Source of the DNA: Escherichia coli
GTDB taxonomy: Bacteria; Pseudomonadota; Gammaproteobacteria; Enterobacterales; Enterobacteriaceae
Strand: one strand, 5' to 3'
Assembly (NCBI RefSeq): GCF_003334305.1
Contig: NZ_QOWS01000018.1
DNA length: 64,000 nucleotides
In this document: piece by piece, positions 6,562 to 37,984 of the stretch
Position numbering within the stretch: the first letter of the stretch is position 1
Layout of the letters: every line of letters starts with the position of its first letter
The notes under the pieces: generated by a model
The model's input: only the letters and a program-made list of their open reading frames with translations
Database searches by the model: none
What the model was told of the DNA's origin: nothing
Program-made: the position numbers and the translations under genes

Positions 6562-7307
6562 CAGTCAGGAACACGTTGCGTTAAAACAGACACAATCTGG
6601 TCATTTAAATCAGCATATTTTTCGGGCAGTACATGCGCAGAAAAGCCCAACCAAAGCTGGCTGCCAGGCGGTGGTTCCACATGTCTTTTATTCCACAGGG
6701 CAACAGGGGCGACGACAGTCTCACCCTCAGGCGTAATCACCATAACGTTATTCTTGTCCGCGCCTGCAAGGCGGGGGTGATCTTGCAGATAATCGGTAAC
6801 GCTACGGCCTGCCTGCCAGGGCAATTGCCCGGCCCCAGAAACCGCACCCAGCAGAGTAATAGTCACCGGACGCTGTACGGTATAGAGCGTATAGTCCCCG
6901 ACCAACGGGGGATTGCTGTTCTCATCCACTCGTACAAAATCAGGGTCCAGTTTGACCGGTAAGCGACCAGTGATATTGAGATTGAGTAACTGCTGGCGCA
7001 CGGATTTAATCGTTGCCGCCACATCGTCGTCAGCTTCTGCTTCCCAGGAAGCAAGCTGTGCCATGACATGTTGGTAGTCTTTAAGCGCTTTAGCTTTCGC
7101 CGCAGAGTCGGTCAGCAAGGCACCAGGCCACCAGAGGCGATCGCGCAGTTGCGGTTGTGTCACCAACTGGACAACATTTTCCATGGGGCCAACGGAAAGT
7201 GTCTGTTGTTCGCCAGGCAGATAAATAGTCACCGTTCCTTGCGCAAAGGCATGGGGTGTCATTACGTAAAGTACGCTGGCAATGAAATACGACTGTAATT
7301 TATTCAT
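6561..7307 (-). CDS. gfcC: Group 4 capsule protein GfcC
   Basis: 248-aa ORF with signal peptide; operon synteny. Confidence 0.85.
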
Positions 7308-7948
7308 GGTGCGGGTTTAAGAAACGTCATTTCTACGGGAATAACCCCTGCGCCTAACATTTGCCGACTTTGACGAACCTGGCCAGTAGCCGAATCGACC
7401 CAGAATGTGTTTTGCCACTGTTTTTCTGGCCGCGTGGAAGTCACCTCTTCCTGCCAGACATTACACAGCACATTGCGACCCGCAATATTCAGCGTCTCTA
7501 ATCCAGCAAAGGAAAAAGTAGAACTCAGGGTCGCAGAGCGAAAATGGTTGTCTTCACTCCAGAGAATATCGCGCGTCCAGCGGCTGCCATCTTTTATTGC
7601 CAGCGCGTTACGCAGAGGGTCCTGCCCGGAATTTGTCACTTCCAGCAGATTATTATTAAGTTTGACGGTTTTTAAAAGACGTCCATTGTGGGTAACCAGC
7701 ATGGCGTTATCCTGGGATAACCATTTGCTTTGTTCTTGTTCTATATATCCCAGTACCACAAAGATTCGTTGCCCTTCATTAAGGCGTAAATACATAGTGG
7801 AATAAGGCAACGCCTGGATCTGCTGATCCGCTACGGTGATATCCTGATTATCGAAAAGGCTGGCGCGAAATGTATCGACCATACTTTGCTGGCTGTGCGT
7901 ACATCCCGCAAGAAATAGTGCGAAAATCGATAAAATAAGAGGGCGCAC
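7304..7948 (-). CDS. gfcB: Group 4 capsule lipoprotein GfcB
   Basis: 214-aa ORF with lipobox (LAGC); operon synteny. Confidence 0.85.
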   Translation of the reverse strand: MRPLILSIFALFLAGCTHSQQSMVDTFRASLFDNQDITVADQQIQALPYSTMYLRLNEGQRIFVVLGYIEQEQSKWLSQDNAMLVTHNGRLLKTVKLNNNLLEVTNSGQDPLRNALAIKDGSRWTRDILWSEDNHFRSATLSSTFSFAGLETLNIAGRNVLCNVWQEEVTSTRPEKQWQNTFWVDSATGQVRQSRQMLGAGVIPVEMTFLKPAP

Positions 7949-10126: not shown

Positions 10127-11200
10127 TTAGTGACCAATCATTGGCGCTTGTGGAATTAAGCGTCGGTACAATTCATCCGGTACCGGGCTTTGCCATACTC
10201 CCGCATACATTGCGTAACCAATCACCGCAAACATAATCCCCAGAACCAGTAGCGTCATTAACCAGCCAGACAACGCAAAGGCTTTTTTATTTGCCGCAGG
10301 TTTTTGCAGTGAAAAGGTCAATGTTGAGGCTACCGGACATGACTCTACGCAAGTCATACAGCCGGTACATTCCACTGTTCGTACCTGAATTAATTTATCT
10401 ACCGGGATCCGTGATGGGCAATTTTTTGCGCATTTGCCACAGCCGATACAACTTTCGGCATTGCGACGAATCTTAAACGGCGATAATAGCGAAACCACGC
10501 CCATCAGCGCGCCATATGGGCAAAGATAACGACACCAGGCATGGCGAATAAACAGGCTGGCAATCAGCAAAACGGTCACGCTGATTAATGTCGCGGTCCC
10601 CATATGACGAAAGAAATCGAGCATTTTTACGTCCATCACCACGCTGTAGGGCGACAACATAAAATAGTGAATCGCCTGAGCGGGCATCAATAACGCGATA
10701 TAGAGAAAAAAACTCAACAGCAAATACTTCACGCCGCGCAGAGGAATATCCAGCCAGCGGGGAAGGACACATTGCCGACCAAACAGTTTGTTACCGAGAT
10801 CGCCGATTAATTCAGAAAGCGTACCAACCGGGCATAACCATGAGCAAAAGGCCTTTTTGAGTAATAGACTGATGACGATAAAAGCGACCAATAACAGCAT
10901 CGCGGCGGCGTGGACGGACGGTAACTGACCTGTTGTAAGGCTATATTTCAGATTCATCAGACCGGCAATCGGTAGCCAGCCTTCGATACCTCCCGGTCTG
11001 GCGACAAATGTCGTGCTACTTGCCGTTTCGTAATAGCGCACCCAATACCAGAACGTGATGGCAATATAAATATTCATTGCCAACAGTAATAATTGCGTCG
11101 CTTTACGCCAGGTCGTGGCATTGCGCCAGTCATTCCACGGTAATTTGCCGCCCGTCGTGCCTGGCCGCCGCTGCCAGCGGGTTCTTTTTTTCTCTGCCAT
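10127..11200 (-). CDS. yccM: Membrane 4Fe-4S ferredoxin-type protein YccM
   Basis: 357-aa ORF with multiple TM segments and CxxCxxC cysteine clusters. Confidence 0.85.
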   Translation of the reverse strand: MAEKKRTRWQRRPGTTGGKLPWNDWRNATTWRKATQLLLLAMNIYIAITFWYWVRYYETASSTTFVARPGGIEGWLPIAGLMNLKYSLTTGQLPSVHAAAMLLLVAFIVISLLLKKAFCSWLCPVGTLSELIGDLGNKLFGRQCVLPRWLDIPLRGVKYLLLSFFLYIALLMPAQAIHYFMLSPYSVVMDVKMLDFFRHMGTATLISVTVLLIASLFIRHAWCRYLCPYGALMGVVSLLSPFKIRRNAESCIGCGKCAKNCPSRIPVDKLIQVRTVECTGCMTCVESCPVASTLTFSLQKPAANKKAFALSGWLMTLLVLGIMFAVIGYAMYAGVWQSPVPDELYRRLIPQAPMIGH

Positions 11201-11271
11201 GATTTTGCCAGTCCGTTAAGTTGCATACCAAATGCCACTATTCTAGTTGTTCTTAACTGGCTGATATTGAT

Positions 11272-14016
11272 TCAAATCGCGTTCAGGTCTTTCTTATTCA
11301 ACCATGCTTCCAGATCGGCAACACTGCGTGTAATTTCTTCGTGTGGAAGGGGGGCAGATAATGGCTGCTGCTCCAGTTGTGCGCATAGCTGGCTGGCGAT
11401 ACGCATTCCCAAACTCGAGCAACTGCTTTTTAGCTGATGCGCGGCACGCTTTATTTTCTCGCTATCCTGACTGGCGCGGGCAATGTCGATTTCATCGAGA
11501 AGCGGCAGGGCATGTTGTGTAAATAATACCAGCCATTCGTGGATCTTCTCCGTCCCCATTAACTGAGCATCTTCATTGAGTTGCGATACATCCAGCGATT
11601 GATCGTTATTGACTTGCAGTTGGAGATAGTGCGCCAGTAACTGACCGAGCACTTCACGCGGCACCGGTTTAGGGATAATCCCGCGGAATAATGAACTGGT
11701 ACGCTGGCGCAGCGTTTCGTCAATGACATGGGCGCTAAAGCCAATCAAAACCAGCGACGGATATTGCTGTGCCAGTTGTCGGGCAAGCGTAATGCCGTCG
11801 ACATCCGGCAGATCAAAATCCACCAGTGCGGCAGCAAACGGTTCGCTATTTTGCAGTGTCTCTAAAGCCTGCGCGGCATTGCCAACAGCAACAACCTGCG
11901 CACCACTGGTGTTCAGCATCTCAACGGTAATTCGCTGGGTTAGCGGGTTATCTTCAATTAACAGCAAACGTAAACCGTCAAGACGCACCGCCTGATTGAC
12001 TGTTTTTGGCACGGGTGCCGTGGCAACACGTAACGGCAAGCGTAAACAAAAACAGCTTCCAACCTCCGGCGTGCTGGTGGCGCTCAGTTCGCCGCCCATC
12101 GCCTGGGCCAGACGGCTACTGATAGTCAGCCCCAGCCCGGTGCCGCCGCGTTTGCCGCTTACCTGCACAAATGGCTGGAAGATTTCTGCCAGTTTCGCGG
12201 GATCAATACCGCAGCCGCTGTCTTCCACTTCGACCAGCCATTGCTCGCCATCAGTGCGACTACGCAGGATAATGTACCCTTCGTCAGTAAAACGCAGGGC
12301 GTTGCTCAACAGGTTGGTTATAACCTGACGAATACGTCGTGGATCGCCCATTAACGCGCACGGCATATCATCGGCAATTGCCGTTGCCAGGCGAATCGGG
12401 CGACCTTTCACCCGTCCGCTCATTAATTGCAGGGTACTTTCCAGCAGCGGGCGCGGTTCAAAGGGCTCATCGCTGACCGAAACATTCTTGCCACCTGCTT
12501 CGATAGCGGAATAATCGAGAATATCGTTGAGGATGGTCAGCAACGATTCACCAGAGTCAGTAATTGCCCGCAAATCATCACGCTGGGCGTTAAGTGCGGG
12601 GTTATCTGCCAGCAGTTGAGCAGTGCCGAGAATACCGTACAGCGGTGTGCGGATCTCATGGCTCATCGCCGCCAGAAACGCCGATTTTGCCTGGCTGGCT
12701 TTTTCTGCTTCCGCCCGTGCCTGTCGGTGTTCTATCACCAGTTCCTGCAATTCAGCTGTACGCGCTTTGACCTGCGCCGCCAGCTGTTCGCGGTGGCGAT
12801 TCAGTGCATGAACATTGCTGCGAAACGCATCCATCAGCCGCCCGATGGTATCCAGCTCCCGTACGCCAGCGGTTTCCGGGAAAGGGGAGTCAATATCACC
12901 GTCCAGCAGCCGTTGCAGCGCCTGCGTTTGTTCGGCAAGTGGACGCGTGACTGAGCGATAAACCACGCGCCAAAGGATCAGAATCAGTGCGCAAAGTGAA
13001 ACCATCCCCAGCAATAACAGGCTGTATTGCCCGCGTGCACTGGCTTTTTCCAGATGCGCCAGTCCGTGCTGATTACGCAGCTCAATGGTGTCGACCAGCT
13101 GACTGACTTCGCTACTAAACTGCGCGAACTGGGCGATGTTATTTTGTGCGAGAGTTTGTAGGTGATTGCTGATTTCACTGTCCTGCTGATACAGCGCCAG
13201 CAAATCGCTATATTGGCTAACGGTAGTTAACGTTGTTGCGACCTGCGCACGAACACCCGGATCTTCAATGCGTATTTGCCGACGTTGCAGAATTTTCACC
13301 GCATTATTGAGCTGCTTTTCCAGCGTTGGTGCATTTTTCTGGATCTGCTCCAGCCCCAGATTCATCACCATTTGCTGCACCCGCAGAGCGCTAAGGCGCA
13401 GTTCATTCATCTGGTTAACATACTCAAGATCGATATCAATCAGCCGATCGAGTGCACTTTCAGCAGCCTGACGCTGATCTTGTTCGATCAAATCGTAAAT
13501 CCCGGCCTGGGTCGCTCCAGCGGAAGTTGTCGCATTATTCGCCTGACCTTGCGCCAGGCGTGCGATCTCATCGGCGGCAGCGACTATCTGCTGACTGAGT
13601 TGCCGTTGTTGCTGGCGTAGTTGCAGACGCCGCCCCACCAGTTCCCCTTGCTGACGTAATGAACGGGAGATCTCCTGCTCCTGTTGTTCAATAGCGGTGG
13701 TATCAAAACCTTGTTCCCGTAACGCTTGCAGCAACGCATTAATCTTCAGGCTTTGTGCGGTGAGCATTCGCCCCTGCGCCTGCCACATCTTTTCGTTATC
13801 GGCACTGGTCAGGTTCTGCGCGGCGAAAAGTTCCCAGGCGCTGGCTTCGCTCAACTGGCGCGCCATATTCATGGTAGGAATCAATGCCTGAGTGTTGTCT
13901 TTTTCCACCTGGCTGATAAAGCGCAGGTTGTACCATCCCACCAGGGTACTGGTCAGGGTTAACAGCGCCATCAGGGCAAAGCCCATCCAGAGTCTTCGGG
14001 TCAGGGTTAAATTCAC
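11272..14016 (-). CDS. torS: TMAO-responsive hybrid sensor kinase TorS
   Basis: 914-aa ORF with histidine kinase (HEIRTPL), receiver and HPt domains. Confidence 0.95.
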
Positions 14017-14098
14017 GGTCGGTGCACTTTAGGTGAAAAAGGTTGAGTCGCAAAGCAGAATGCATCTAGCATAAAGCCTTATTATTGATGAGGCTATC

Positions 14099-15127
14099 AT
14101 GCGCGTACTGCTATTTTTACTTCTTTCCCTTTTCATGTTATCGGCATTTTCGGCTGATAACCTGTTGCGCTGGCATGATGCGCAGCATTACACGGTGCAA
14201 GCCTCTACGCCGCTTAAAGCCAAACGCGCATGGAAACTGTGCGCGCTTTATCCCAGCCTGAAAGATTCATACTGGTTATCGTTGAACTATGGTATGCAGG
14301 AGGCAGCTCGCCGCTATGGTGTGGATTTAAAAGTGCTGGAGGCAGGCGGCTACAGCCAGTTGGCTACCCAGCAAGCACAAATCGACCAGTGTAAACAGTG
14401 GGGCGCAGAGGCCATTTTGCTCGGTAGTAGCACTACGTCATTTCCCGACCTGCAAAAGCAGGTAGCAAATCTGCCGGTGATCGAACTGGTAAATGCTCTT
14501 GATGATCCCCTGGTGAAAAGCCGCGTTGGTGTACCCTGGTTTCAGATGGGCTATCAACCTGGGCGATATTTGGTGCAATGGGCGCACGGTAAACCACTGA
14601 ACGTGCTGTTGATGCCCGGACCCGATAATGCCGGGGGCAGTAAAGAGATGGTCGAGGGTTTTCGCGCAGCCATTGCCGGAAGCCCGGTGCGTATTGTTGA
14701 TATTGCGCTTGGTGATAACGATATTGAAATCCAGCGTAACCTGTTGCAGGAGATGCTGGAACGCCACCCAGAAATCGACGTCGTTGCCGGAACGGCCATT
14801 GCGGCAGAGGCGGCAATGGGTGAAGGGCGTAACCTGAAAACGCCGCTTACCGTGGTGTCGTTTTATCTTTCACATCAGGTGTATCGCGGGCTGAAGCGGG
14901 GAAGAGTGATTATGGCTGCCAGCGATCAAATGGTCTGGCAGGGGGAACTGGCGGTTGAGCAGGCCATCAGGCAATTACAGGGGCAATCGGTGTCTGATAA
15001 TGTCAGCCCACCGATTTTAGTTCTGACGCCGAAAAATGCCGACCGTGAACATATTCGCCGCTCGCTGTCACCAGGGGGATTTCGTCCGGTCTATTTTTAT
15101 CAGCACACATCAGCGGCTAAGAAATAA
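14099..15127 (+). CDS. torT: Periplasmic TMAO-binding protein TorT
   Basis: 342-aa periplasmic binding-protein fold with signal peptide; synteny. Confidence 0.9.
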   Translation: MRVLLFLLLSLFMLSAFSADNLLRWHDAQHYTVQASTPLKAKRAWKLCALYPSLKDSYWLSLNYGMQEAARRYGVDLKVLEAGGYSQLATQQAQIDQCKQWGAEAILLGSSTTSFPDLQKQVANLPVIELVNALDDPLVKSRVGVPWFQMGYQPGRYLVQWAHGKPLNVLLMPGPDNAGGSKEMVEGFRAAIAGSPVRIVDIALGDNDIEIQRNLLQEMLERHPEIDVVAGTAIAAEAAMGEGRNLKTPLTVVSFYLSHQVYRGLKRGRVIMAASDQMVWQGELAVEQAIRQLQGQSVSDNVSPPILVLTPKNADREHIRRSLSPGGFRPVYFYQHTSAAKK

Positions 15128-15792
15128 CCTTCACCATGTTGCGTCACCAGTAAATCCGCGCTGAGTTTATGACGTAAACGACGAATTAACACATCGACGG
15201 TGCGCAGGTCAGGGTTTTCCACCCGACGCGCAGAAAGCATACGTAGCAGACGTTCACGGCTGAGAATTTCGCCCGGATTCGTCACAAATGCCACCAACAT
15301 TTCATACTCTGCGCGGGTCAGTTTAATCGGCTCGCCATCCCGCTCCAGCGTATGGCGCGACACATTCAGGCAATAACCGGCAAAGCGATAGCAGTTGTCC
15401 TGAGTGTGCGGTTGAGCTTGTCGCGCGAGGTCGATTCGCCAGAGCAGATTTTTCACCCGTACTACCAGTTCGCGCAGTTCCAGCGGTTTGGTGACGTAAT
15501 CGTCTGCGCCCATTTCCAGCCCAACAATACGGTCAATCCGATCGCTGCGTCCGGTAACCAGAATAATCCCCACCGTTGAGCGTTCTCGCAGGGCGCGGGT
15601 TAACATCAGGCCATTTTCATCGGGTAAGTTGATATCCAGCAGAATTAAATCTACCGGCTGATTCTGCATAATTTCCCGCAGCCCGGCACCGCTCGCTGTA
15701 ACGGAAACGGTATACCCCTCCTGAGTGAAGTAAGATTGTAATCGCGCCTGGGTAACCGGCTCATCTTCAACAATAACAATGTGATGTGGCAT
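15100..15792 (-). CDS. torR: Response regulator TorR (OmpR family)
   Basis: 230-aa receiver plus winged-helix domains. Confidence 0.9.
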   Translation of the reverse strand: MPHHIVIVEDEPVTQARLQSYFTQEGYTVSVTASGAGLREIMQNQPVDLILLDINLPDENGLMLTRALRERSTVGIILVTGRSDRIDRIVGLEMGADDYVTKPLELRELVVRVKNLLWRIDLARQAQPHTQDNCYRFAGYCLNVSRHTLERDGEPIKLTRAEYEMLVAFVTNPGEILSRERLLRMLSARRVENPDLRTVDVLIRRLRHKLSADLLVTQHGEGYFLAADVC

Positions 15793-15921
15793 CAGAGGGT
15801 TTTACTCATTCTGTTCATATCTGTTCATATTCTGCCGTAAGCCGTTCATCCTGACCAGTGCCGCTGTTCATATTTGCTCATTAAGATCGCTTCACTAAAC
15901 CATAATTTTACAGGGGCTATT

Positions 15922-17094
15922 ATGCGGAAACTCTGGAACGCGCTACGCCGACCCAGTGCTCGTTGGTCGGTACTGGCGCTGGTCGCAATTGGGATTGTGA
16001 TTGGCATTGCGCTGATTGTATTGCCACACGTTGGGATCAAAGTCACCAGCACAACCGAATTTTGTGTCAGTTGCCACAGTATGCAACCGGTGTATGAAGA
16101 ATATAAACAGTCGGTGCATTTCCAGAACGCCTCCGGCGTGCGAGCTGAATGCCATGACTGTCATATCCCGCCGGATATTCCAGGCATGGTGAAGCGCAAA
16201 CTGGAAGCGAGCAATGATATCTACCAGACCTTTATTGCTCACTCCATTGATACACCTGAAAAATTCGAAGCCAAACGCGCGGAACTTGCCGAGCGTGAAT
16301 GGGCGCGAATGAAAGAAAACAACTCGGCAACCTGCCGCTCCTGCCATAACTACGATGCGATGGATCATGCGAAGCAGCATCCTGAAGCGGCACGTCAGAT
16401 GAAGGTGGCAGCGAAAGATAATCAATCCTGCATCGACTGTCATAAAGGTATTGCCCACCAGTTACCGGATATGAGTAGCGGCTTCCGTAAGCAGTTCGAT
16501 GAGCTGCGCGCCAGTGCTAATGACAGTGGTGACACGCTGTACTCTATTGATATTAAGCCAATTTATGCGGCGAAAGGCGATAAAGAAGCCTCTGGTTCTC
16601 TGCTGCCTGCTTCGGAAGTGAAAGTCCTTAAACGTGACGGCGACTGGCTGCAAATTGAAATTACCGGCTGGACGGAAAGCGCCGGACGTCAGCGTGTACT
16701 CACCCAATTCCCAGGTAAACGCATCTTTGTTGCCTCGATTCGTGGTGATGTGCAGCAGCAGGTAAAAACGCTGGAGAAAACCACCGTTGCCGACACCAAT
16801 ACCGAGTGGAGCAAGTTGCAGGCCACCGCATGGATGAAGAAAGGCGACATGGTGAACGATATCAAACCGATCTGGGCCTATGCGGATTCGTTGTACAACG
16901 GCACCTGTAACCAGTGCCACGGCGCACCGGAAATCGCCCACTTTGACGCTAACGGTTGGATCGGCACGCTCAACGGCATGATTGGCTTTACCAGTCTCGA
17001 TAAACGTGAAGAACGCACTTTGTTGAAATATCTGCAAATGAATGCGTCTGACACCGCAGGTAAGGCTCACGGCGATAAGAAGGAAGAAAAATAA
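15922..17094 (+). CDS. torC: Pentahaem c-type cytochrome TorC
   Basis: Multiple CxxCH haem-binding motifs; start taken at MRKLWNAL (390 aa). Confidence 0.9.
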   Translation: MRKLWNALRRPSARWSVLALVAIGIVIGIALIVLPHVGIKVTSTTEFCVSCHSMQPVYEEYKQSVHFQNASGVRAECHDCHIPPDIPGMVKRKLEASNDIYQTFIAHSIDTPEKFEAKRAELAEREWARMKENNSATCRSCHNYDAMDHAKQHPEAARQMKVAAKDNQSCIDCHKGIAHQLPDMSSGFRKQFDELRASANDSGDTLYSIDIKPIYAAKGDKEASGSLLPASEVKVLKRDGDWLQIEITGWTESAGRQRVLTQFPGKRIFVASIRGDVQQQVKTLEKTTVADTNTEWSKLQATAWMKKGDMVNDIKPIWAYADSLYNGTCNQCHGAPEIAHFDANGWIGTLNGMIGFTSLDKREERTLLKYLQMNASDTAGKAHGDKKEEK

Positions 17095-24893: not shown

Positions 24894-25499
24894 TTAGCCG
24901 TTAAGTTTAACTGCCAGACCTGCGACATATTCCCCTTGATAACGAGCAATAGACAGTTCTTCCTGGCTTGGCTGGCGTGAGCCGTCACCGCCTGCGATGG
25001 TTGTTGCGCCGTACGGCGTACCGCCGCGAACCTGTGAAACGTCAAATAATTCCTGCGCTGCGTAGCCAATGGGGACAATTACCATGCCGTGATGCGCAAG
25101 GGTCGTCCAGGTTGAAGTAATAGTTTGTTCCTGACCGCCGCCAGTACCGGTGGAACTAAAGACGCTCGCCAGTTTTCCGTATAGTGCGCCGGAAGCCCAC
25201 AGGCCGCCCGTCTGGTCGAGGAAGGTACGCATTTGACCGGACATGTTGCCAAAGCGGGTAGGTGTACCAAAAATAATGGCGTCGTAATCGGCCAGTTCTT
25301 GCGGGGTTGCAACCGGTGCAGTTTGCGTTTTACCGCCTGCTTTTTCAAATAATTGCGGCGGCATGGTTTCCGGTACACGCTTAACGACAACTTCTGCGCC
25401 ATCCACTTTGCTTGCACCCTCAGCGACTGCGCGTGCCATCGTTTCAATATGTCCGTACATGGAATAATAAAGCACTAGTATTCTTGCCTTAACACTCAT
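24894..25499 (-). CDS. wrbA: NAD(P)H:quinone oxidoreductase WrbA with an element-encoded N-terminus ([12 protein letters not shown] in place of the recalled K-12 MAKVLVLYY)
   Basis: 201-aa flavodoxin-like ORF; the first codons and the RBS (aggaga) lie in the inserted element, the rest is host wrbA. Confidence 0.9.
25469..25475. other. attL core candidate (AAAGCAC), left copy of the junction direct repeat
   Basis: Host wrbA sequence ends and element sequence begins right after this heptamer. Confidence 0.55.
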
Positions 25500-25550: not shown

Positions 25551-27194
25551 ATGAAGCTGCTAGTGACATACATCAGGTGGAGTACTAAAGAGCAAGACTC
25601 AGGAGACTCCTTAAGACGACAAACAAACCTCATTGATGCTTTCTACTCTAAGCACAAAAACGATTATTACCTTCTTCCTGCTCACAGATACGTTGATAAG
25701 GGTAAATCTGGTTTTCACCAGCAACATAAGAATCAAGGTTCTGACTTCAGACGTATGTTTGAAAATGTTATGTCTGGGGCTATTCCAGAAGGTTCCCTGA
25801 TTGTTGTAGAGAACTTTGACCGCTTCAGTAGGGCTGATATCGACACAGCTATAGATGATGTCAGGCAGATACTGAGGAAGGGAGTCTCTATACTGACTCT
25901 GGGAGATGGTGAACTCTACGACAAGTCAGCATTAACAGACCCTGTGAAGCTGATTAAGCACATCATCATAGCTGAGCGAGCACATCAGGAATCTCTTGTT
26001 AAACAAAAGCGTATAGCTCAGGTCTGGAACCATAAAACACAGCTTGCAAGAGAACTTAAGAAGCCTATGGGTAAGCAAGCCCCCGGATGGTTAGAGCTAT
26101 CAGAAGACGGTTCACACTACATCGTTGATGAAGATAAAGCGTCACTGGTGAATATCATCTATGACAAGCGTCTTTCTGGTATGTCGATGTTTGCTATCTG
26201 CAAATGGCTAAACGAACAAGGTTACCCGACCATTAATCAGCGTAAGGTCAGAATATCCAAGACTAAGAAACCGGATGGTAACTGGTCAGCTTTAAGCGTT
26301 AAACACATCCTGACTTCACGAAGTGTATTAGGTTACCTTCCCGCTAAGATTTCTACAGAAGACCGTAAAACAGTGTTACGTGAAGAAATTGAAGGGTTCT
26401 ATCCTCAGATTGTCACAGATTCTAAGTTTTACGCTGTACAGCAACTGTTAGAGGAAACAGGGAAGGGGAAAACATCCAGCGGTGACCACTGGTTATACGT
26501 GAACATACTGAAGGGGCTTATCCGTTGTAAGTGTGGGCTTGTAATGACTCCTACAGGGATACGTAAACCCGTTTATCAAGGTACTTACCGTTGCAATGGT
26601 AATAAGGAGTCCCGTTGTAGCTACGGTACAGTGTCCAGAAAGTTACTTGATACACAGCTTTGTAGTCGTCTGTTTAGCAAACTGTCACAGCTACACGATG
26701 AAGCTACCGATACAGCTAAATTAGATGAACTACAAAGAAGATTAAACACCGTTGATGGTGAACTGGAAAAACTCACTGAGACGCTGATACAGCTTCCTAA
26801 CATCACTCAGATTCAAGAAGCACTACGGGTTAAACAGGAAGAAAAAGATGAACTGATAGTTCAGTTATCACGAGAAAAGGCGAGGGTAAAATCTGTATCA
26901 AGCTTGGATTTAAGCGGTCTTGATATGGAGTCTGTAGAGGGGAGAACTGAAGCCCAGATTATCATTAAGCGTCTGGTGAAAGAGATTGTTGTTTCTGGTA
27001 ATGAAAAGCTGGTGGATATATATCTTCACAATGGAAATATGATTCGTGGTTTCCCTCTTGATGGTAAAGATGACCACACCTTAACGCTTGAAGAAGCAAC
27101 CGATGAGATGCAGTCACTAGATGATATGCTTATTTTTGGTGAACCAGTAACAAGGATTTATCCTGCTGGTGATATGGAAGAGGTGGACGCTTAG
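25551..27194 (+). CDS. Large serine recombinase (integrase candidate)
   Basis: 547 aa; N-terminal resolvase-type catalytic motif YIRWSTKEQ (catalytic Ser), Cys-rich zinc-ribbon region (CKCG...CNGNKESRC) and coiled-coil segment typical of large serine recombinases; gene abuts the junction. Confidence 0.85.
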
Positions 27195-34777: not shown

Positions 34778-35446
34778 TCAGCCCAACCTTTGAACAATCT
34801 TGTAAGTGGTGCTTAGAGGCATTCTTAGCGATTCTGCGATGCTCTTGACGGATTGCCCTTGGCCATGCAGTTTAATCAGCCTGTCAAGCGTCTGTGCATC
34901 GTGTATATGAGGTCTTCCACGTAAACCACCCCTGTTAACCACGGCAAGTAAAAGCATTGTGTCGCCACAATAGATTGTTTGTGTAACTTCAACCTTCGGT
35001 TTACGGGGTGTGTTCCTGTATATCAAAACGCAACTTGCAAACGGTGAACGCACTACAACACCTTTCTTCCCTGCTGGTGGAAGGTATTTGACTGCTCGGT
35101 GTAACGTTCGAATCTCATGCAGAAAGGGGTTTGTATATACACACCGAAGCCAGTAAGTTGTCTTTGACCTGTGCGGAACCAGACATACACACACATCAGC
35201 TTCATGGGATTTTAGGAGGAACCTTTCAGCCATGCTAAACGGCGGGTTAACGAAGACCCGTTCACCAACCCATGATTGATTGTGAATATCATCGGTGAAC
35301 CGTGGCAACAATGCGTCATGCTCAGTTGCAGCACCATCCATCGAAAAACCAAATTCACGGTGTAGGTTACGAAATAAACGATACGGTGTACGCCAGTCAT
35401 CAGAACCACCATGATAACGACCGACATTGATTATTGGATGTGACAC
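34778..35446 (-). CDS. Dam-family (phage-type) DNA N6-adenine methyltransferase with a C-terminal HTH extension; GTG start
   Basis: N-terminal DWRTP and catalytic NPPF motifs of the phage Dam family; C-terminal about 45 aa (GRPHIHDAQTLDRLIKLHGQGQSVKSIAESLRMPLSTTYKIVQRLG) resemble the GRP-linker plus HTH of resolvase/invertase proteins. Confidence 0.7.
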   Translation of the reverse strand: MSHPIINVGRYHGGSDDWRTPYRLFRNLHREFGFSMDGAATEHDALLPRFTDDIHNQSWVGERVFVNPPFSMAERFLLKSHEADVCVCLVPHRSKTTYWLRCVYTNPFLHEIRTLHRAVKYLPPAGKKGVVVRSPFASCVLIYRNTPRKPKVEVTQTIYCGDTMLLLAVVNRGGLRGRPHIHDAQTLDRLIKLHGQGQSVKSIAESLRMPLSTTYKIVQRLG

Positions 35447-36145: not shown

Positions 36146-36347
36146 TTTGTATAAAATCTGTACAGGAGTTATCAGGCTTCTAAAATTTTTATAAAAAATA
36201 ATCAGACCTCTTCTAAGCCTCTTCAACCAAATCTTTCGAAAATATCTGACAGATGTCTGTAGCTGCTAAGTACCCGTCACACCAGCTATGTGACCCCCTT
36301 GGCAAAAAAGCCAAATATCAGCTACATCCATGTAACTATTCAGTAAC

Positions 36348-36899
36348 TTATTTAGCAAGTCTGTAATAAGTTGCTCTAGAGATTCCTAACTCTTCCTGAA
36401 TCTGCAACCTCGTCTTACCTTGTGAAATAAGCGTCTGTACAGCCTCTGAAGAAGCCTTTACAGGCCTCCCCATATGTACCCCTTCAGCTTTAGCACGTTC
36501 AATACCAGCCTTTCTACGCTCTGCTATCAAGCTTCTTTCAAGCTGTGCCAACGTTGACATAATGCCTAACATTGCTTCACCCATAGCGCTTGATAAGTCA
36601 AACCCTTCTCTAAGGCTGATAACTGTCACACCTTTAGCCTGTAGCGCTTTAACCGTTGATAACACATCAATTGTGTCACGTCCAAGACGGTCTACAGCTA
36701 CCACAACTACGGTGTCACCTTCTCGTGCATAAGCTAACAAACTACTGAAACCGTTTCTTAAAGAAGCTTTGACAGAACCACTGACAGCTTCATCAGTGAA
36801 CCATTTAGCAATGTTGTACCCTGCCTCTTCAATTTGCATTTGCTGGTTAGTGATGGATTGGTCATCTGTACTCACCCTGCAATATCCAAGTATCGCCAT
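36348..36899 (-). CDS. Small serine recombinase (resolvase/DNA-invertase family)
   Basis: 183 aa; N-terminal catalytic motif GYCRVSTDDQ, resolvase core, C-terminal GRP linker plus HTH. Confidence 0.85.
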   Translation of the reverse strand: MAILGYCRVSTDDQSITNQQMQIEEAGYNIAKWFTDEAVSGSVKASLRNGFSSLLAYAREGDTVVVVAVDRLGRDTIDVLSTVKALQAKGVTVISLREGFDLSSAMGEAMLGIMSTLAQLERSLIAERRKAGIERAKAEGVHMGRPVKASSEAVQTLISQGKTRLQIQEELGISRATYYRLAK

Positions 36900-36912
36900 A
36901 CATCCCCCTTAG

Positions 36913-37040
36913 AAGTCTCAAAAGTTAGTCTCATAAGTTTAGCTGTCTCATAATCCAAAAACAACCTTTTGAGACTACTTGAGGGTGCATTCTACCGTTA
37001 CGTTGAAAGTGTCTCAAAAGGAAGTCCTTTTAAGACTGGT
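36913..37040. promoter_or_regulatory. Iteron-like array of GTCTCAWAAG motifs (at least four direct, two inverted) immediately upstream of the small recombinase gene
   Basis: gtctcaaaag, gtctcataag, gtctcataat, inverted ttttgagact, gtctcaaaag, taagact within about 125 bp. Confidence 0.6.
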
Positions 37041-37416
37041 TATGAAGGAGCTATGAAGATTTTAGGAGGGTAACTATAACCATCACTTTCTAACTTTCAC
37101 GTAGGAAATCGTTAAGTTTCTTGATAGTTACACCATGTGACCAACTATCTATATATCGTTATATAGCCCTGTATATAACACTTTTCTAGGAGTCGAGAGA
37201 GGGACGACTAACACGATACAGTTTACCCTGAAAAGAGACTTCACAGATTCTCTATATATTTCAATAAGTTAGGCTAAAAAGAGACTATACCGATACTGTA
37301 TAGAATCTGTGTAGAATTGCTTAGATACTTGGAAAAATGCCTTTAAATTGAATAGGTACTAACCTGTTTATGTCCTGTTATTAACAGGTAGTTGAATGTA
37401 CGTGTTTAGCTATGTA

Positions 37417-37438
37417 AAAGCACCAGAACTTTAGCCAT
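37417..37438 (-). other. attR core candidate (AAAGCAC) plus the displaced native wrbA start codon and first five codons
   Basis: Minus strand reads ATG GCT AAA GTT CTG GTG C..., the recalled native wrbA 5' end, now separated from the gene body by the element. Confidence 0.6.
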
Positions 37439-37810
37439 TTCTAACCACTCCTCGTGTTATCTCTATTCCGTAGCGATTCGCTACCACTTATTTAAAGATA
37501 AGACGTCCTTTTCAGAGTGCAAATTTCACAACCACTTATTTGATTTATAACAACTTTCACAAGCACGTAATTTTGTCGCAAAATGACACATTTTTATCTC
37601 ATCGCGTTTTTTTAATCATAAGAGCGGCTTATGGATAATTATTGGAGATGATATCTATTCTCGCTAAGAAGCTGTTGCAGGATATTACCAAACGCGGGTC
37701 TGCCCGCGTCAGTTCACTAAGCTTAGTCCCACGTAGCGAAAATATGGCAGCCGCCATACGCCGCGTTAATTCTATGCAATATGATGTCTATACCCAGACG
37801 GAGGTCAGTA

Positions 37811-37984
37811 ATGGCAAACCATCGAGGCGGTTCCGGCAATTTTGCAGAAGACCGCGAAAGAGCATCAGAAGCAGGTAAAAAAGGTGGACAGCACAGCGGG
37901 GGGAATTTCAAGAATGACCCGCAGCGCGCATCTGAAGCAGGTAAAAAAGGTGGCAAGAGCAGTCACGGTAAAAGTGACAACTAG
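37811..37984 (+). CDS. ymdF: Stress-induced small protein YmdF (KGG-repeat protein)
   Basis: MANHRGGSGNFAEDRERASEAGKKGG... with GGAGG RBS; 57 aa. Confidence 0.85.
   Translation: MANHRGGSGNFAEDRERASEAGKKGGQHSGGNFKNDPQRASEAGKKGGKSSHGKSDN

What the first reader, a model, noticed from the sequence alone, without database searches (positions are those of the whole stretch)
36913..37040. Iteron-like array of GTCTCAWAAG motifs upstream of the small recombinase gene
At least four direct copies and two inverted or partial copies of a 10-bp motif occur within about 125 bp, spaced 14-17 bp apart, directly upstream of the recombinase start codon. Such arrays are typical of res-type accessory sites for resolvases or of iteron origins and operators. 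Their position between the recombinase gene and attR suggests a recombination or replication control site.
Basis: seen in the sequence. Interest (0 to 1): 0.5.

Follow-up and report, generated by a model that had tools for sequence, protein, structure and literature searches.

The report
Three-part res site of prophage resolvase
The repeat cluster is most likely the complete recombination site (res: one crossover site plus two accessory sites, overlapping the gene's promoter) of the adjacent small serine resolvase. This is an ordinary kind of system, but its layout mixes features of the two textbook types.

Summary
Six copies of GTCTCAWAAG (up to 1 mismatch) lie at 36915-37036, against at most 2 per 130 bp in 600 simulated sequences.

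They are not iterons. They are six 12-bp half-sites forming three dimer sites, in this order from the gene:
- Site III, 36915-36939: two direct repeats, 12+1+12.
- Site II, 36945-36975: an inverted pair, 12+7+12, with an A-tract centre.
- A 35-bp spacer.
- Site I, 37011-37036: a 26-bp near-palindrome, 12+2+12, centre AG.

The adjacent 183-aa protein is closest to gamma-delta/Tn3 resolvase and keeps the catalytic residues. The best sigma70-like promoter for the gene has its -35 inside site I and its -10 in the spacer.

Ten homologous loci (52-67% protein identity; Klebsiella, Yersinia, Cronobacter, Enterobacter, Aeromonas, metagenomes) keep the same geometry. Their half-site sequence changes with the protein. 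The centre-to-centre distance between sites I and II is about 63 or about 52 bp, one helical turn apart.

The module also occurs without the large serine integrase or attR, so it belongs to the small recombinase. There is no second site in the window, no rep gene and no Tn3 transposase.

Verdict: a res site with autoregulatory operator, probably for resolving element multimers, as shown for SGI1. It is a variant of a known kind and of modest interest. Binding and recombination are untested.

The parts
36348..36899 (-). Small serine recombinase gene (183 aa), resolvase-like: catalytic domain plus C-terminal helix-turn-helix domain
   Evidence: ORF. The best solved relatives are gamma-delta and Tn3 resolvase (E 3e-31 and 9e-29, full length); Gin invertase is weaker (E 8e-22). 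Precomputed Pfam domains for near-identical proteins are PF00239 and PF02796. Y6, R8, S10, R71 and R74 are invariant in alignment A2, and D36 is present in every family member aligned. These correspond to the Tn3 residues Y6, R8, S10, D36, R68 and R71 reported as crucial for catalysis (PMC2794168).
36915..36939 (.). Site III (gene-proximal accessory site): two head-to-tail 12-bp half-sites, GTCTCAAAAGTT (36915-36926) and GTCTCATAAGTT (36928-36939), 12+1+12 = 25 bp
   Evidence: (D2). The direct-repeat arrangement at the same distance from the start codon is kept in 9 of 10 homologous loci; L019 has an inverted pair instead.
36945..36975 (.). Site II (middle accessory site): inverted half-sites GTCTCATAATCC (36945-36956, +) and GTCTCAAAAGGT (36964-36975, -), 12+7+12 = 31 bp, with an A-rich centre (AAAAACA)
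   Evidence: (I17). It is 29-32 bp long in all 10 loci. [quoted passage not shown]
36976..37010 (.). 35-bp spacer between sites II and I, with the conserved block GGTGCATTCTACCGT
   Evidence: The block is conserved in Klebsiella L002 and, as GCTGCATTCTGTCGT, in the E. coli island L006. Spacer length is 34-35 bp in 7 loci and 23-25 bp in 3 loci.
36989..37017 (-). Predicted sigma70 promoter of the recombinase gene: -35 TTGAGA (37017-37012, inside the left half of site I), 17-nt spacer, -10 TAGAAT (36994-36989, in the conserved spacer block)
   Evidence: Best promoter-like match in 36300-37850, 10 of 12 positions. This is a consensus match only, not evidence of function.
37011..37036 (.). Site I (putative crossover site): GTCTCAAAAGGA AG TCCTTTTAAGAC, 12+2+12 = 26 bp, with central dinucleotide AG at 37023-37024
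   Evidence: I9: 12-nt arms, 92% complementary, 2 nt apart. It is exactly 26 bp in all 10 homologous loci, with central dinucleotides AG, GA, CT, GC or GT. It is invariant among the close E. coli copies examined.

Best explanation
The array is the complete res site of the adjacent small serine resolvase, and it doubles as the operator of that gene.

Binding (inferred). Three resolvase dimers bind six 12-bp half-sites through the C-terminal helix-turn-helix domain.

Resolution (inferred by analogy with Tn3/gamma-delta, Sin and SGI1). The reaction needs two res copies in direct repeat on one supercoiled molecule. That situation arises with a dimeric circular form of the phage or island, or with a tandem insertion. 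The dimers on sites II and III of both copies then wrap together. This activates the dimers on the two site I copies. Ser10 cuts both strands at the central AG, the half-sites rotate and are rejoined, and the multimer becomes monomers.

Autoregulation (inferred). With a single copy, as in this 12-kb prophage remnant, no recombination occurs. The bound protein instead sits on its own promoter, whose -35 lies in site I, whose -10 lies in the I-II spacer, and whose transcript reads through sites II and III. This limits its own expression.

Shown here: the site anatomy, its conservation and covariation with the protein, and the resolvase-like sequence with catalytic residues intact.
For: 1. The clustering is far beyond chance.

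2. The geometry is that of dimer sites. Site I is 12+2+12, site II is 12+7+12 with an A-tract, and site III is 12+1+12. Site III lies next to the start codon and site I is distal. That order is the canonical one for Tn3, Tn501 and SGI1 (PMC7157771; PMC12217951).

3. The protein is nearest to gamma-delta/Tn3 resolvase. It keeps the catalytic residues (PMC2794168). Its conserved Tyr-x-Arg (Y57, R59) aligns with the regulatory-interface residues F52 and R54 of Sin and with K54 and E56 of gamma-delta (PMC2428073).

4. Ten loci with 52-67% identical proteins keep the layout. Site I is always 26 bp, site II is 29-32 bp and site III is 24-28 bp. The II-III centre distance is 31.5-35 bp. The I-II centre distance is 62-63.5 or 51.5-52.5 bp, about 6 or 5 helical turns. 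The half-site core changes with the protein (GTCTC, GTATC, GGCTC). The outer 5 nt are more alike within a locus than between loci (0 of 5000 permutations reached the observed difference).

5. In L009 and L003 the res and the DNA-binding-domain codons are 98-100% identical to the window, while the catalytic-domain codons are only 56-70% identical. So the sites travel with the domain predicted to read them.

6. The module occurs without a large serine integrase or attR: in tyrosine-integrase islands, in a satellite, and next to parA.

7. The best promoter match overlaps site I and the conserved spacer block. Tn3-type res sites carry resolvase-repressed promoters (PMC7157771).

8. There is a precedent on an integrative element. 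The SGI1 res/resolvase system was shown to remove tandem multimers (PMC12217951).
Against: - There are no binding, cleavage or expression data, so every mechanistic step rests on analogy.
- The window holds only one res, and the A7 chromosome shows one place matching the gene-plus-array stretch.
- Site III is a direct repeat and site I has a 2-bp spacer. This fits neither the Tn3 nor the Sin prototype, so the synapse architecture cannot simply be copied from them.
- Pairing of the six half-sites into three dimers is by adjacency, which is an inference.
- The promoter is only a consensus match, and a comparable -10 is seen in only some relatives.
- The half-site matrix and the geometry table were built from sites I chose by eye with help from palindrome and mismatch scans.
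Confidence: 0.8

Rival explanations
1. Operator only. The protein is a domesticated, recombinase-derived repressor and the array merely controls transcription of its own gene or of neighbouring genes. No recombination takes place.
For: The best promoter match overlaps site I and the spacer. There is only one copy in the window. Resolvases are known autorepressors (PMC7157771).
Against: The catalytic residues Y6, R8, S10, D36, R71 and R74 are kept across proteins only 52-67% identical, and in both catalytic-domain alleles. Helical phasing between sites I and II is preserved, and site I is strictly 26 bp with a 2-bp centre. Those features are needed for a synapse, not for repression.
Confidence: 0.12
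2. An invertase system. Site I is a hix/gix-type 26-bp inversion site and the recombinase flips a DNA segment. PHROGs labels the protein family 'DNA invertase'.
For: Site I is 12+2+12 = 26 bp with a non-palindromic centre; from my memory of hix and gix, that matches them. PHROG 125 is named 'DNA invertase'. The best NCBIfam hit is the Mpi invertase family, but far below its cut-off (93.6 against 272 bits).
Against: No second paired site exists anywhere in the 64-kb window. Two extra dimer sites in a res-like layout accompany site I in every relative. The protein scores higher against resolvases than against Gin. The Tyr-x-Arg at the regulatory-interface position matches Sin.
Confidence: 0.04
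3. An iteron-type replication origin or copy-control array.
For: Several direct copies of a short motif lie within about 125 bp.
Against: Orientations are mixed with dimer-site geometry. No rep gene lies adjacent. The motif covaries with the recombinase, and the array always sits at a fixed distance from that gene's start codon.
Confidence: 0.01
4. Arm-type or accessory sites for the large serine integrase, or for its directionality factor, acting at attP/attR.
For: The array lies about 360 bp from the right end of the element. In the circular form it would sit between the small recombinase gene and attP plus the large serine integrase gene. The same pairing of the two recombinases at opposite prophage ends recurs at tonB/yciI, and both genes also lie close together in Aeromonas and Cronobacter.
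Against: The array travels with the small recombinase in elements that use tyrosine integrases or have none in the stretch examined. L004 keeps the prophage end but lacks both the array and the small recombinase. From general knowledge, large serine integrases use short simple att sites.
Confidence: 0.03

Closest known systems
Tn3 / gamma-delta (Tn1000) res with TnpR resolvase, and the Tn21/Tn501 arrangement with res upstream of tnpR
   Same: - Three dimer-binding subsites made of 12-bp half-sites.
- Site III next to the resolvase start codon and site I distal.
- Site III has a 1-bp spacer (25 bp).
- An A-tract in site II.
- The I-II centre distance is a whole number of helical turns.
- A promoter is embedded in res.
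- The protein is 38% identical to gamma-delta resolvase over its full length in alignment A2.

   Different: - Site I is 26 bp (2-bp spacer), not 28 bp (4-bp spacer), and its centre is AG, not a TA/AT step.
- Site II is 31 bp, not 34 bp.
- Site III is a direct, not an inverted, repeat.
- The I-II spacer is 35 bp (6 turns centre to centre) here, against 22 bp (5 turns).
- No Tn3-type transposase is annotated in the 12-kb element.
- At the regulatory-interface position the protein has Tyr-x-Arg, not Lys-x-Glu.
Sin res (staphylococcal plasmids) and other 'Sin-like' res sites
   Same: - The accessory site nearest the gene is a head-to-tail (direct) repeat of the binding motif.
- An aromatic-x-Arg motif (Y57, R59) aligns with the regulatory residues F52 and R54 of Sin.

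   Different: - Sin res is 86 bp, with two dimer sites plus an HU/IHF bend. Here a third dimer site with an A-tract occupies the place of the bend.
- The protein lacks Sin's insertions and is only 33% identical to it in alignment A2.
SGI1 res/resolvase of Salmonella genomic island 1
   Same: - A tripartite res upstream of a resolvase gene on an integrative, non-transposon element, with boxIII next to the start codon.
- A non-palindromic centre (AC there).
- A predicted promoter within res.
- A demonstrated role in removing tandem multimers of the element.
(PMC12217951)
   Different: - SGI1 has boxes of 28, 30 and 25 bp separated by 22-bp and 2-bp spacers, aligned to Tn3 and gamma-delta.
- Similarity between the two proteins was not measured here.
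- The present module sits on prophages, islands and satellites, and in this window about 360 bp from attR.
hix/gix/cix sites of the Hin/Gin/Cin invertases
   Same: A 26-bp site of two 12-bp inverted half-sites around a 2-bp core (from memory of that literature). The proteins are homologous (Gin E 8e-22).
   Different: Invertases need two such sites in inverted orientation plus a Fis-bound enhancer, and they have no accessory dimer sites. Here there is a single site I with two accessory sites and no partner in the window.

Membership tests
Small serine resolvase with cognate res site (general class) | An adjacent gene for a small serine recombinase of about 180-210 aa, with the catalytic Ser and a C-terminal helix-turn-helix domain | tested here: met
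   183 aa. Full-length match to gamma-delta and Tn3 resolvase. Pfam PF00239 and PF02796. Equivalents of Y6, R8, S10, D36, R68 and R71 are present.
Small serine resolvase with cognate res site (general class) | A crossover site made of two inverted half-sites, plus accessory binding sites beside it and on one side only | tested here: met
   Site I at 37011-37036, with sites II and III both on the gene side. This is shown by sequence only.
Small serine resolvase with cognate res site (general class) | The sites are bound by the protein, and two direct res copies are resolved | not testable with these tools
   Needs EMSA or footprinting and a resolution assay. Indirect support comes from the half-site motif covarying with the protein across 10 loci.
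Tn3/gamma-delta-type tripartite res | Three dimer sites in the order I-II-III, with III next to the resolvase gene | tested here: met
Tn3/gamma-delta-type tripartite res | All three subsites are inverted repeats of 28, 34 and 25 bp | tested here: not met
   The subsites are 26, 31 and 25 bp, and site III is a direct repeat here and in 9 of 10 relatives. Tn3 values come from PMC9943657 and PMC12217951.
Tn3/gamma-delta-type tripartite res | The I-II centre distance is a whole number of helical turns (usually 5, range 4-7) | tested here: met
   63.5 bp here. Relatives have 62-63.5 or 51.5-52.5 bp. The criterion is from PMC12217951.
Tn3-family transposon | A DDE TnpA transposase and about 38-bp terminal inverted repeats around the res/tnpR module | tested here: not met
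   No Tn3-type transposase is annotated in the 12-kb element or its flanks. The only 'transposase' is a 236-aa protein among the tail genes. Terminal inverted repeats were not searched for.
Sin-type res | Two dimer sites only, with an HU/IHF-bent spacer, and site II as a direct repeat | tested here: not met
   Three dimer sites are present. Only the direct-repeat feature is shared.
Invertase (Hin/Gin) system | Two crossover sites in inverted orientation flanking an invertible segment | tested here: not met
   No second paired site in the 64 kb.
Iteron origin | Directly repeated iterons next to a rep gene, with an AT-rich unwinding region | tested here: not met
   Mixed orientations and no rep gene.

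The most novel reading that the evidence does not exclude
This family's res may be a natural intermediate between the Tn3-type and Sin-type synaptic architectures that has not been described. It has three dimer sites like Tn3, but with a Sin-like head-to-tail accessory site, a Sin-like Tyr-x-Arg regulatory patch and a 26-bp site I. It is used by temperate phages, satellites and islands rather than by transposons or plasmids. In one prophage lineage it is systematically placed opposite the large serine integrase across attP. There are also natural catalytic-domain swaps on an unchanged DNA-binding domain plus res.
Probability: 0.3. Interest if true: 0.45.

Novelty: new variant of a known kind. 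Interest (0 to 1): 0.33.

Why it matters
If the reading is right, a widespread and uncharacterised resolvase family of Enterobacterales mobile elements gets a defined recombination site. The predicted crossover point is AG at 37023-37024, and the half-site code varies between relatives.

This matters in three ways:
- Annotation. These genes are currently labelled 'recombinase family protein' or 'DNA invertase'.
- Element biology. It bears on how prophages and islands avoid dimeric or tandem forms.
- Mechanism. It offers a natural test case for models of the resolvase synapse, because a Tn3-like three-site res carries a Sin-like direct-repeat accessory site.

It does not open a new kind of biology.

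Tried and rejected
- Second site. I looked for a second site in the window, for inversion or for deletion between two res copies. A weight-matrix scan found only isolated weak half-sites.
- Natural recombination products at the centre of site I.
  - Hits that start at about 37026 without a recombinase (H135-H142) turned out to be gradual decay of homology in a prophage lineage that lacks the module (L004).
  - H134/L005 is a truncation next to IS3 copies, with homology to the window starting at about 36944.
  - BLAST end-points at about 37041 cannot separate 'module ends at site I' from 'crossover in site I'.
- Collections. The phage collection gave no match at DNA level and only about 40% identical proteins. 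The plasmid collection gave only two Klebsiella records, which look chromosomal. The exact site I sequence occurs in only 2 IMG/VR contigs, the same two found through the protein.
- RNA. Rfam has no family matching 36300-37800.
- IHF. I judged an IHF site in the I-II spacer by eye and found no good match to the consensus. No tool was used.
- Curated families. NCBIfam gave no family above its cut-off.
- Literature. Three paper searches failed on time-outs or queueing. I therefore could not establish whether a three-site res with a direct-repeat site III has been described; Rowland et al. 2002 is not in the library.

Full report
**Context.** The window matches E. coli strain A7 at 100% identity. 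The finding lies in a 12-kb prophage remnant inserted in the 5' end of wrbA, upstream of ymdF and rutG. The remnant has these parts:
- A 547-aa large serine recombinase gene at its left end (window 25551-27194, +).
- Tail genes and an adenine methyltransferase.
- A 183-aa small serine recombinase gene as its last gene on the right (36348-36899, -).

Sequence shared with related prophages at other chromosomal sites ends at 37389. Homology to uninterrupted wrbA resumes at 37417, so attR lies at about 37390-37417. The array at 36915-37036 starts 15 bp upstream of the recombinase start codon and sits about 360 bp inside the right end of the element.

**Observation.** GTCTCAWAAG with up to 1 mismatch occurs at 36915+, 36928+, 36945+, 36966-, 37011+ and 37027-. 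The count over the whole window is unremarkable (9 against 6.8 expected), but six hits in 130 bp is not. The maximum was 2 in 600 Markov-simulated sequences. A 12-nt matrix built from the six half-sites scores them at 12.4 bits or more. Only one other position in 64 kb reaches that score, and it has no partner.

**Anatomy.** The six copies are 12-bp half-sites that pair by adjacency into three sites.

| Site | Coordinates | Layout | Notes |
|---|---|---|---|
| III | 36915-36939 | GTCTCAAAAGTT A GTCTCATAAGTT, head-to-tail, 12+1+12 | nearest the gene |
| gap | 36940-36944 | 5 bp | |
| II | 36945-36975 | inverted pair, 12+7+12 = 31 bp | A-rich centre |
| spacer | 36976-37010 | 35 bp | holds the conserved block GGTGCATTCTACCGT |
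| I | 37011-37036 | GTCTCAAAAGGA AG TCCTTTTAAGAC, 12+2+12 = 26 bp | farthest from the gene |

The centre-to-centre distance is 33 bp between II and III, and 63.5 bp (about six helical turns) between I and II.

The best sigma70-like match in 36300-37850 is on the gene's strand. Its -35 (TTGAGA) lies in the left half of site I and its -10 (TAGAAT) lies in the conserved spacer block (10 of 12 positions). Transcription would therefore start between sites I and II and read through sites II and III.

**The protein.**
- The best solved relatives are gamma-delta and Tn3 resolvase (E 3e-31 and 9e-29, full length). Gin invertase is weaker (8e-22) and Sin weaker still.
- The six Tn3 residues reported as crucial for catalysis are Y6, R8, S10, D36, R68 and R71 (PMC2794168). 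Their equivalents here are Y6, R8, S10, D36, R71 and R74, all present in every family member aligned.
- A conserved Tyr-x-Arg (Y57, R59) aligns with F52 and R54 of Sin and with K54 and E56 of gamma-delta. These are the residues of the regulatory interface that links accessory-site and crossover-site dimers (PMC2428073).
- No NCBIfam family passes its cut-off. PHROGs calls the family 'DNA invertase'.

**Comparative evidence.**
- Distribution. Relatives of the gene-plus-array stretch occur in 264 of 5426 complete E. coli genomes. The protein family is broad in Enterobacterales.
- Loci examined. I examined ten loci whose proteins are 52-67% identical to the window's. They come from Klebsiella, E. 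coli islands, Yersinia, Cronobacter, Enterobacter, Aeromonas and metagenomes.
- Conserved geometry. In all ten, site I is exactly 26 bp, site II is 29-32 bp and site III is 24-28 bp. Site III is a direct repeat in nine and an inverted pair in L019. The II-III centre distance is 31.5-35 bp. The I-II centre distance falls into two classes, 62-63.5 bp (seven loci) and 51.5-52.5 bp (three loci), one helical turn apart. An eleventh, more distant locus (Laribacter, L013) also has a 12+2+12 palindrome at the same distance from the start codon.
- Covariation. The half-site core changes with the protein: GTCTC, GTATC (Enterobacter), and GGCTC or AGCTC (Aeromonas and two metagenome loci). The outer five bases are more alike within a locus than between loci; no permutation in 5000 reached the observed difference.
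- Variable spacers. Spacers between the sites vary freely in sequence.
- What this pattern implies. Fixed geometry, preserved phasing and a motif that tracks the protein are what is expected of binding sites for the adjacent protein assembled into a defined complex.

**Co-inheritance with the DNA-binding domain.** L009 (the same wrbA locus) and L003 (E. coli O111:H- 11128, tonB/yciI locus) were compared with the window. They are 98-100% identical over res and over the codons of the C-terminal DNA-binding domain. They are only 56-70% identical (62% at protein level) over the catalytic-domain codons, and the boundary is sharp at the start codon. The sites thus travel with the domain predicted to read them.

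**Independence from attR and the large serine integrase.** The module recurs at the right end of related prophages at wrbA and tonB/yciI, with a large serine integrase gene or its remnant at the other end where that end was examined. It also occurs in these other settings:
- Islands with tyrosine integrases at thiM (L006, L007), and an island next to tRNA-Leu (L008).
- A P4-like satellite.
- Next to a parA partition gene.

Conversely, L004 (a related prophage at yecE) keeps the prophage end but lacks both the recombinase and the array. The array therefore belongs to the small recombinase and not to attR.

**Mechanism.** The layout matches the canonical res logic. Site III is next to the resolvase gene, recombination occurs in the distal site I, and promoters are embedded in res and repressed by the resolvase (PMC7157771). 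Tn3 uses 12-mer half-sites, with a 1-bp spacer in site III, a spacer 3 bp longer in site I, a spacer 9 bp longer in site II, and a conserved A-tract in site II (PMC9943657). The I-II centre distance is usually 5 turns but can be 4-7, and phasing matters (PMC12217951).

I therefore infer the following:
- Three resolvase dimers bind the array.
- Two res copies in direct repeat synapse through sites II and III.
- Ser10 cuts at the central AG of site I.
- The product is resolution of a dimer or tandem array.
- With a single copy the protein acts as an autorepressor.

The SGI1 island gives a tested precedent for such a system on an integrative element: its restored res/resolvase removes tandem multimers. 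In A7 there is one res in a decayed remnant, so the site is presumably idle apart from autoregulation.

**How it differs from the prototypes.**
- Against Tn3/gamma-delta: site I has a 2-bp rather than a 4-bp spacer and a non-palindromic centre. Site II is 31 rather than 34 bp. Site III is direct rather than inverted. The I-II distance is one turn longer. No Tn3-type transposase is annotated in the element.
- Against Sin: there are three dimer sites rather than two plus an HU/IHF bend. The head-to-tail accessory site and the aromatic-x-Arg patch are Sin-like.

It therefore works like a res but is not a member of either prototype family. I could not establish from the library whether this hybrid layout has been described, because several searches failed.

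**Rivals.**

| Rival | Estimate | Main evidence bearing on it |
|---|---|---|
| Operator only | 0.12 | Catalytic residues, phasing and the strict 26-bp site I are conserved |
| Invertase site | 0.04 | No partner site; accessory sites are present |
| Accessory sites for the large serine integrase | 0.03 | The module occurs without that integrase |
| Iteron origin | 0.01 | Mixed orientations; no rep gene |

**Verdict.** The 'res-type' reading is supported and sharpened: the array is a complete res with its crossover site, and it also serves as an operator. The replication reading and the link to attR are not supported. It is a new variant of a known kind and of modest interest.

Noticed in passing
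window 36348-36899, compared with L009 6001-6549 and L003 20001-20549: A natural domain swap. Relatives at the same locus (wrbA) and at another locus (tonB/yciI, E. coli O111:H- 11128) are 98-100% identical over res and the codons of the DNA-binding domain. They are only 56-70% identical in DNA (62% in protein) over the catalytic-domain codons, about 36500-36899, with a sharp boundary at the start codon.
   Followed up: partly
window 37040-37389: About 350 bp of non-coding sequence at the prophage end is conserved in related prophages at three chromosomal sites, including L004, which lacks the small recombinase. It holds 34-nt direct repeats (37223-37256 and 37269-37302), an inverted repeat (37239-37254 and 37299-37314) and AT-rich palindromes (37146-37180). 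It has no Rfam match and no ORF of 40 aa or more. In the circular phage it would lie between res and attP plus the large serine integrase gene, so it could carry that gene's promoter or control sites.
   Followed up: partly
L005 6120-6160 and 6445-6480; L003, L010 and L024 at the position equivalent to window ~37062: A small palindromic insert (about 23-60 bp; core AGGGGTTGGTACAAGCCCAACTA inside GGTTGATT...AATCAAC) is flanked by a repeated CTATGA just right of site I in several relatives. A second, related copy lies near attR in L005. It looks like a miniature mobile or hairpin element.
   Followed up: no
L006 3721-5448; L007 3615-5333; L008 3870-5725; L014 5001-6353; L012 3632-5895; window 34778-35446: Genes next to the small recombinase in relatives are often defence-like and differ from element to element. 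They include AIPR abortive-infection proteins, an Eco29kI restriction-modification pair, DarT/NADAR, a DprA-like protein with a phosphoribosyltransferase, and a Dam-like methyltransferase. The recombinase/res module may mark a variable cargo spot.
   Followed up: no
window 24894-25499 and 37417-37640: The remnant separates the body of wrbA (which has a phage-supplied 5' end, 201 aa) from its native start and promoter region. That region now points into the right end of the element, towards res and the small recombinase gene.
   Followed up: no
window 25551-27194 with 36348-36899; L023 4528-4848 with 6997-7548; L012; L018: A large serine integrase gene and the small resolvase gene sit at opposite ends of related prophages at wrbA and tonB/yciI, so they would flank attP divergently in the circular form. 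The two genes also lie within a few kb of each other in Aeromonas and Cronobacter loci.
   Followed up: partly
L002 (NZ_CP074582.1, K. pneumoniae 'plasmid' p2B30155) 10646-16563: This 120-kb record is typed as a non-mobilizable plasmid. It carries ordinary chromosomal genes (sodB, purR, punR, punC, cfa) right beside the prophage end, so it may be a mis-assigned or mis-assembled replicon.
   Followed up: no
L018 position ~96 of the upstream region (I-II spacer): The Cronobacter relative has a seventh good half-site (GTCTCGAAAGGT, minus orientation) inside the I-II spacer. The other loci have none there.
   Followed up: no
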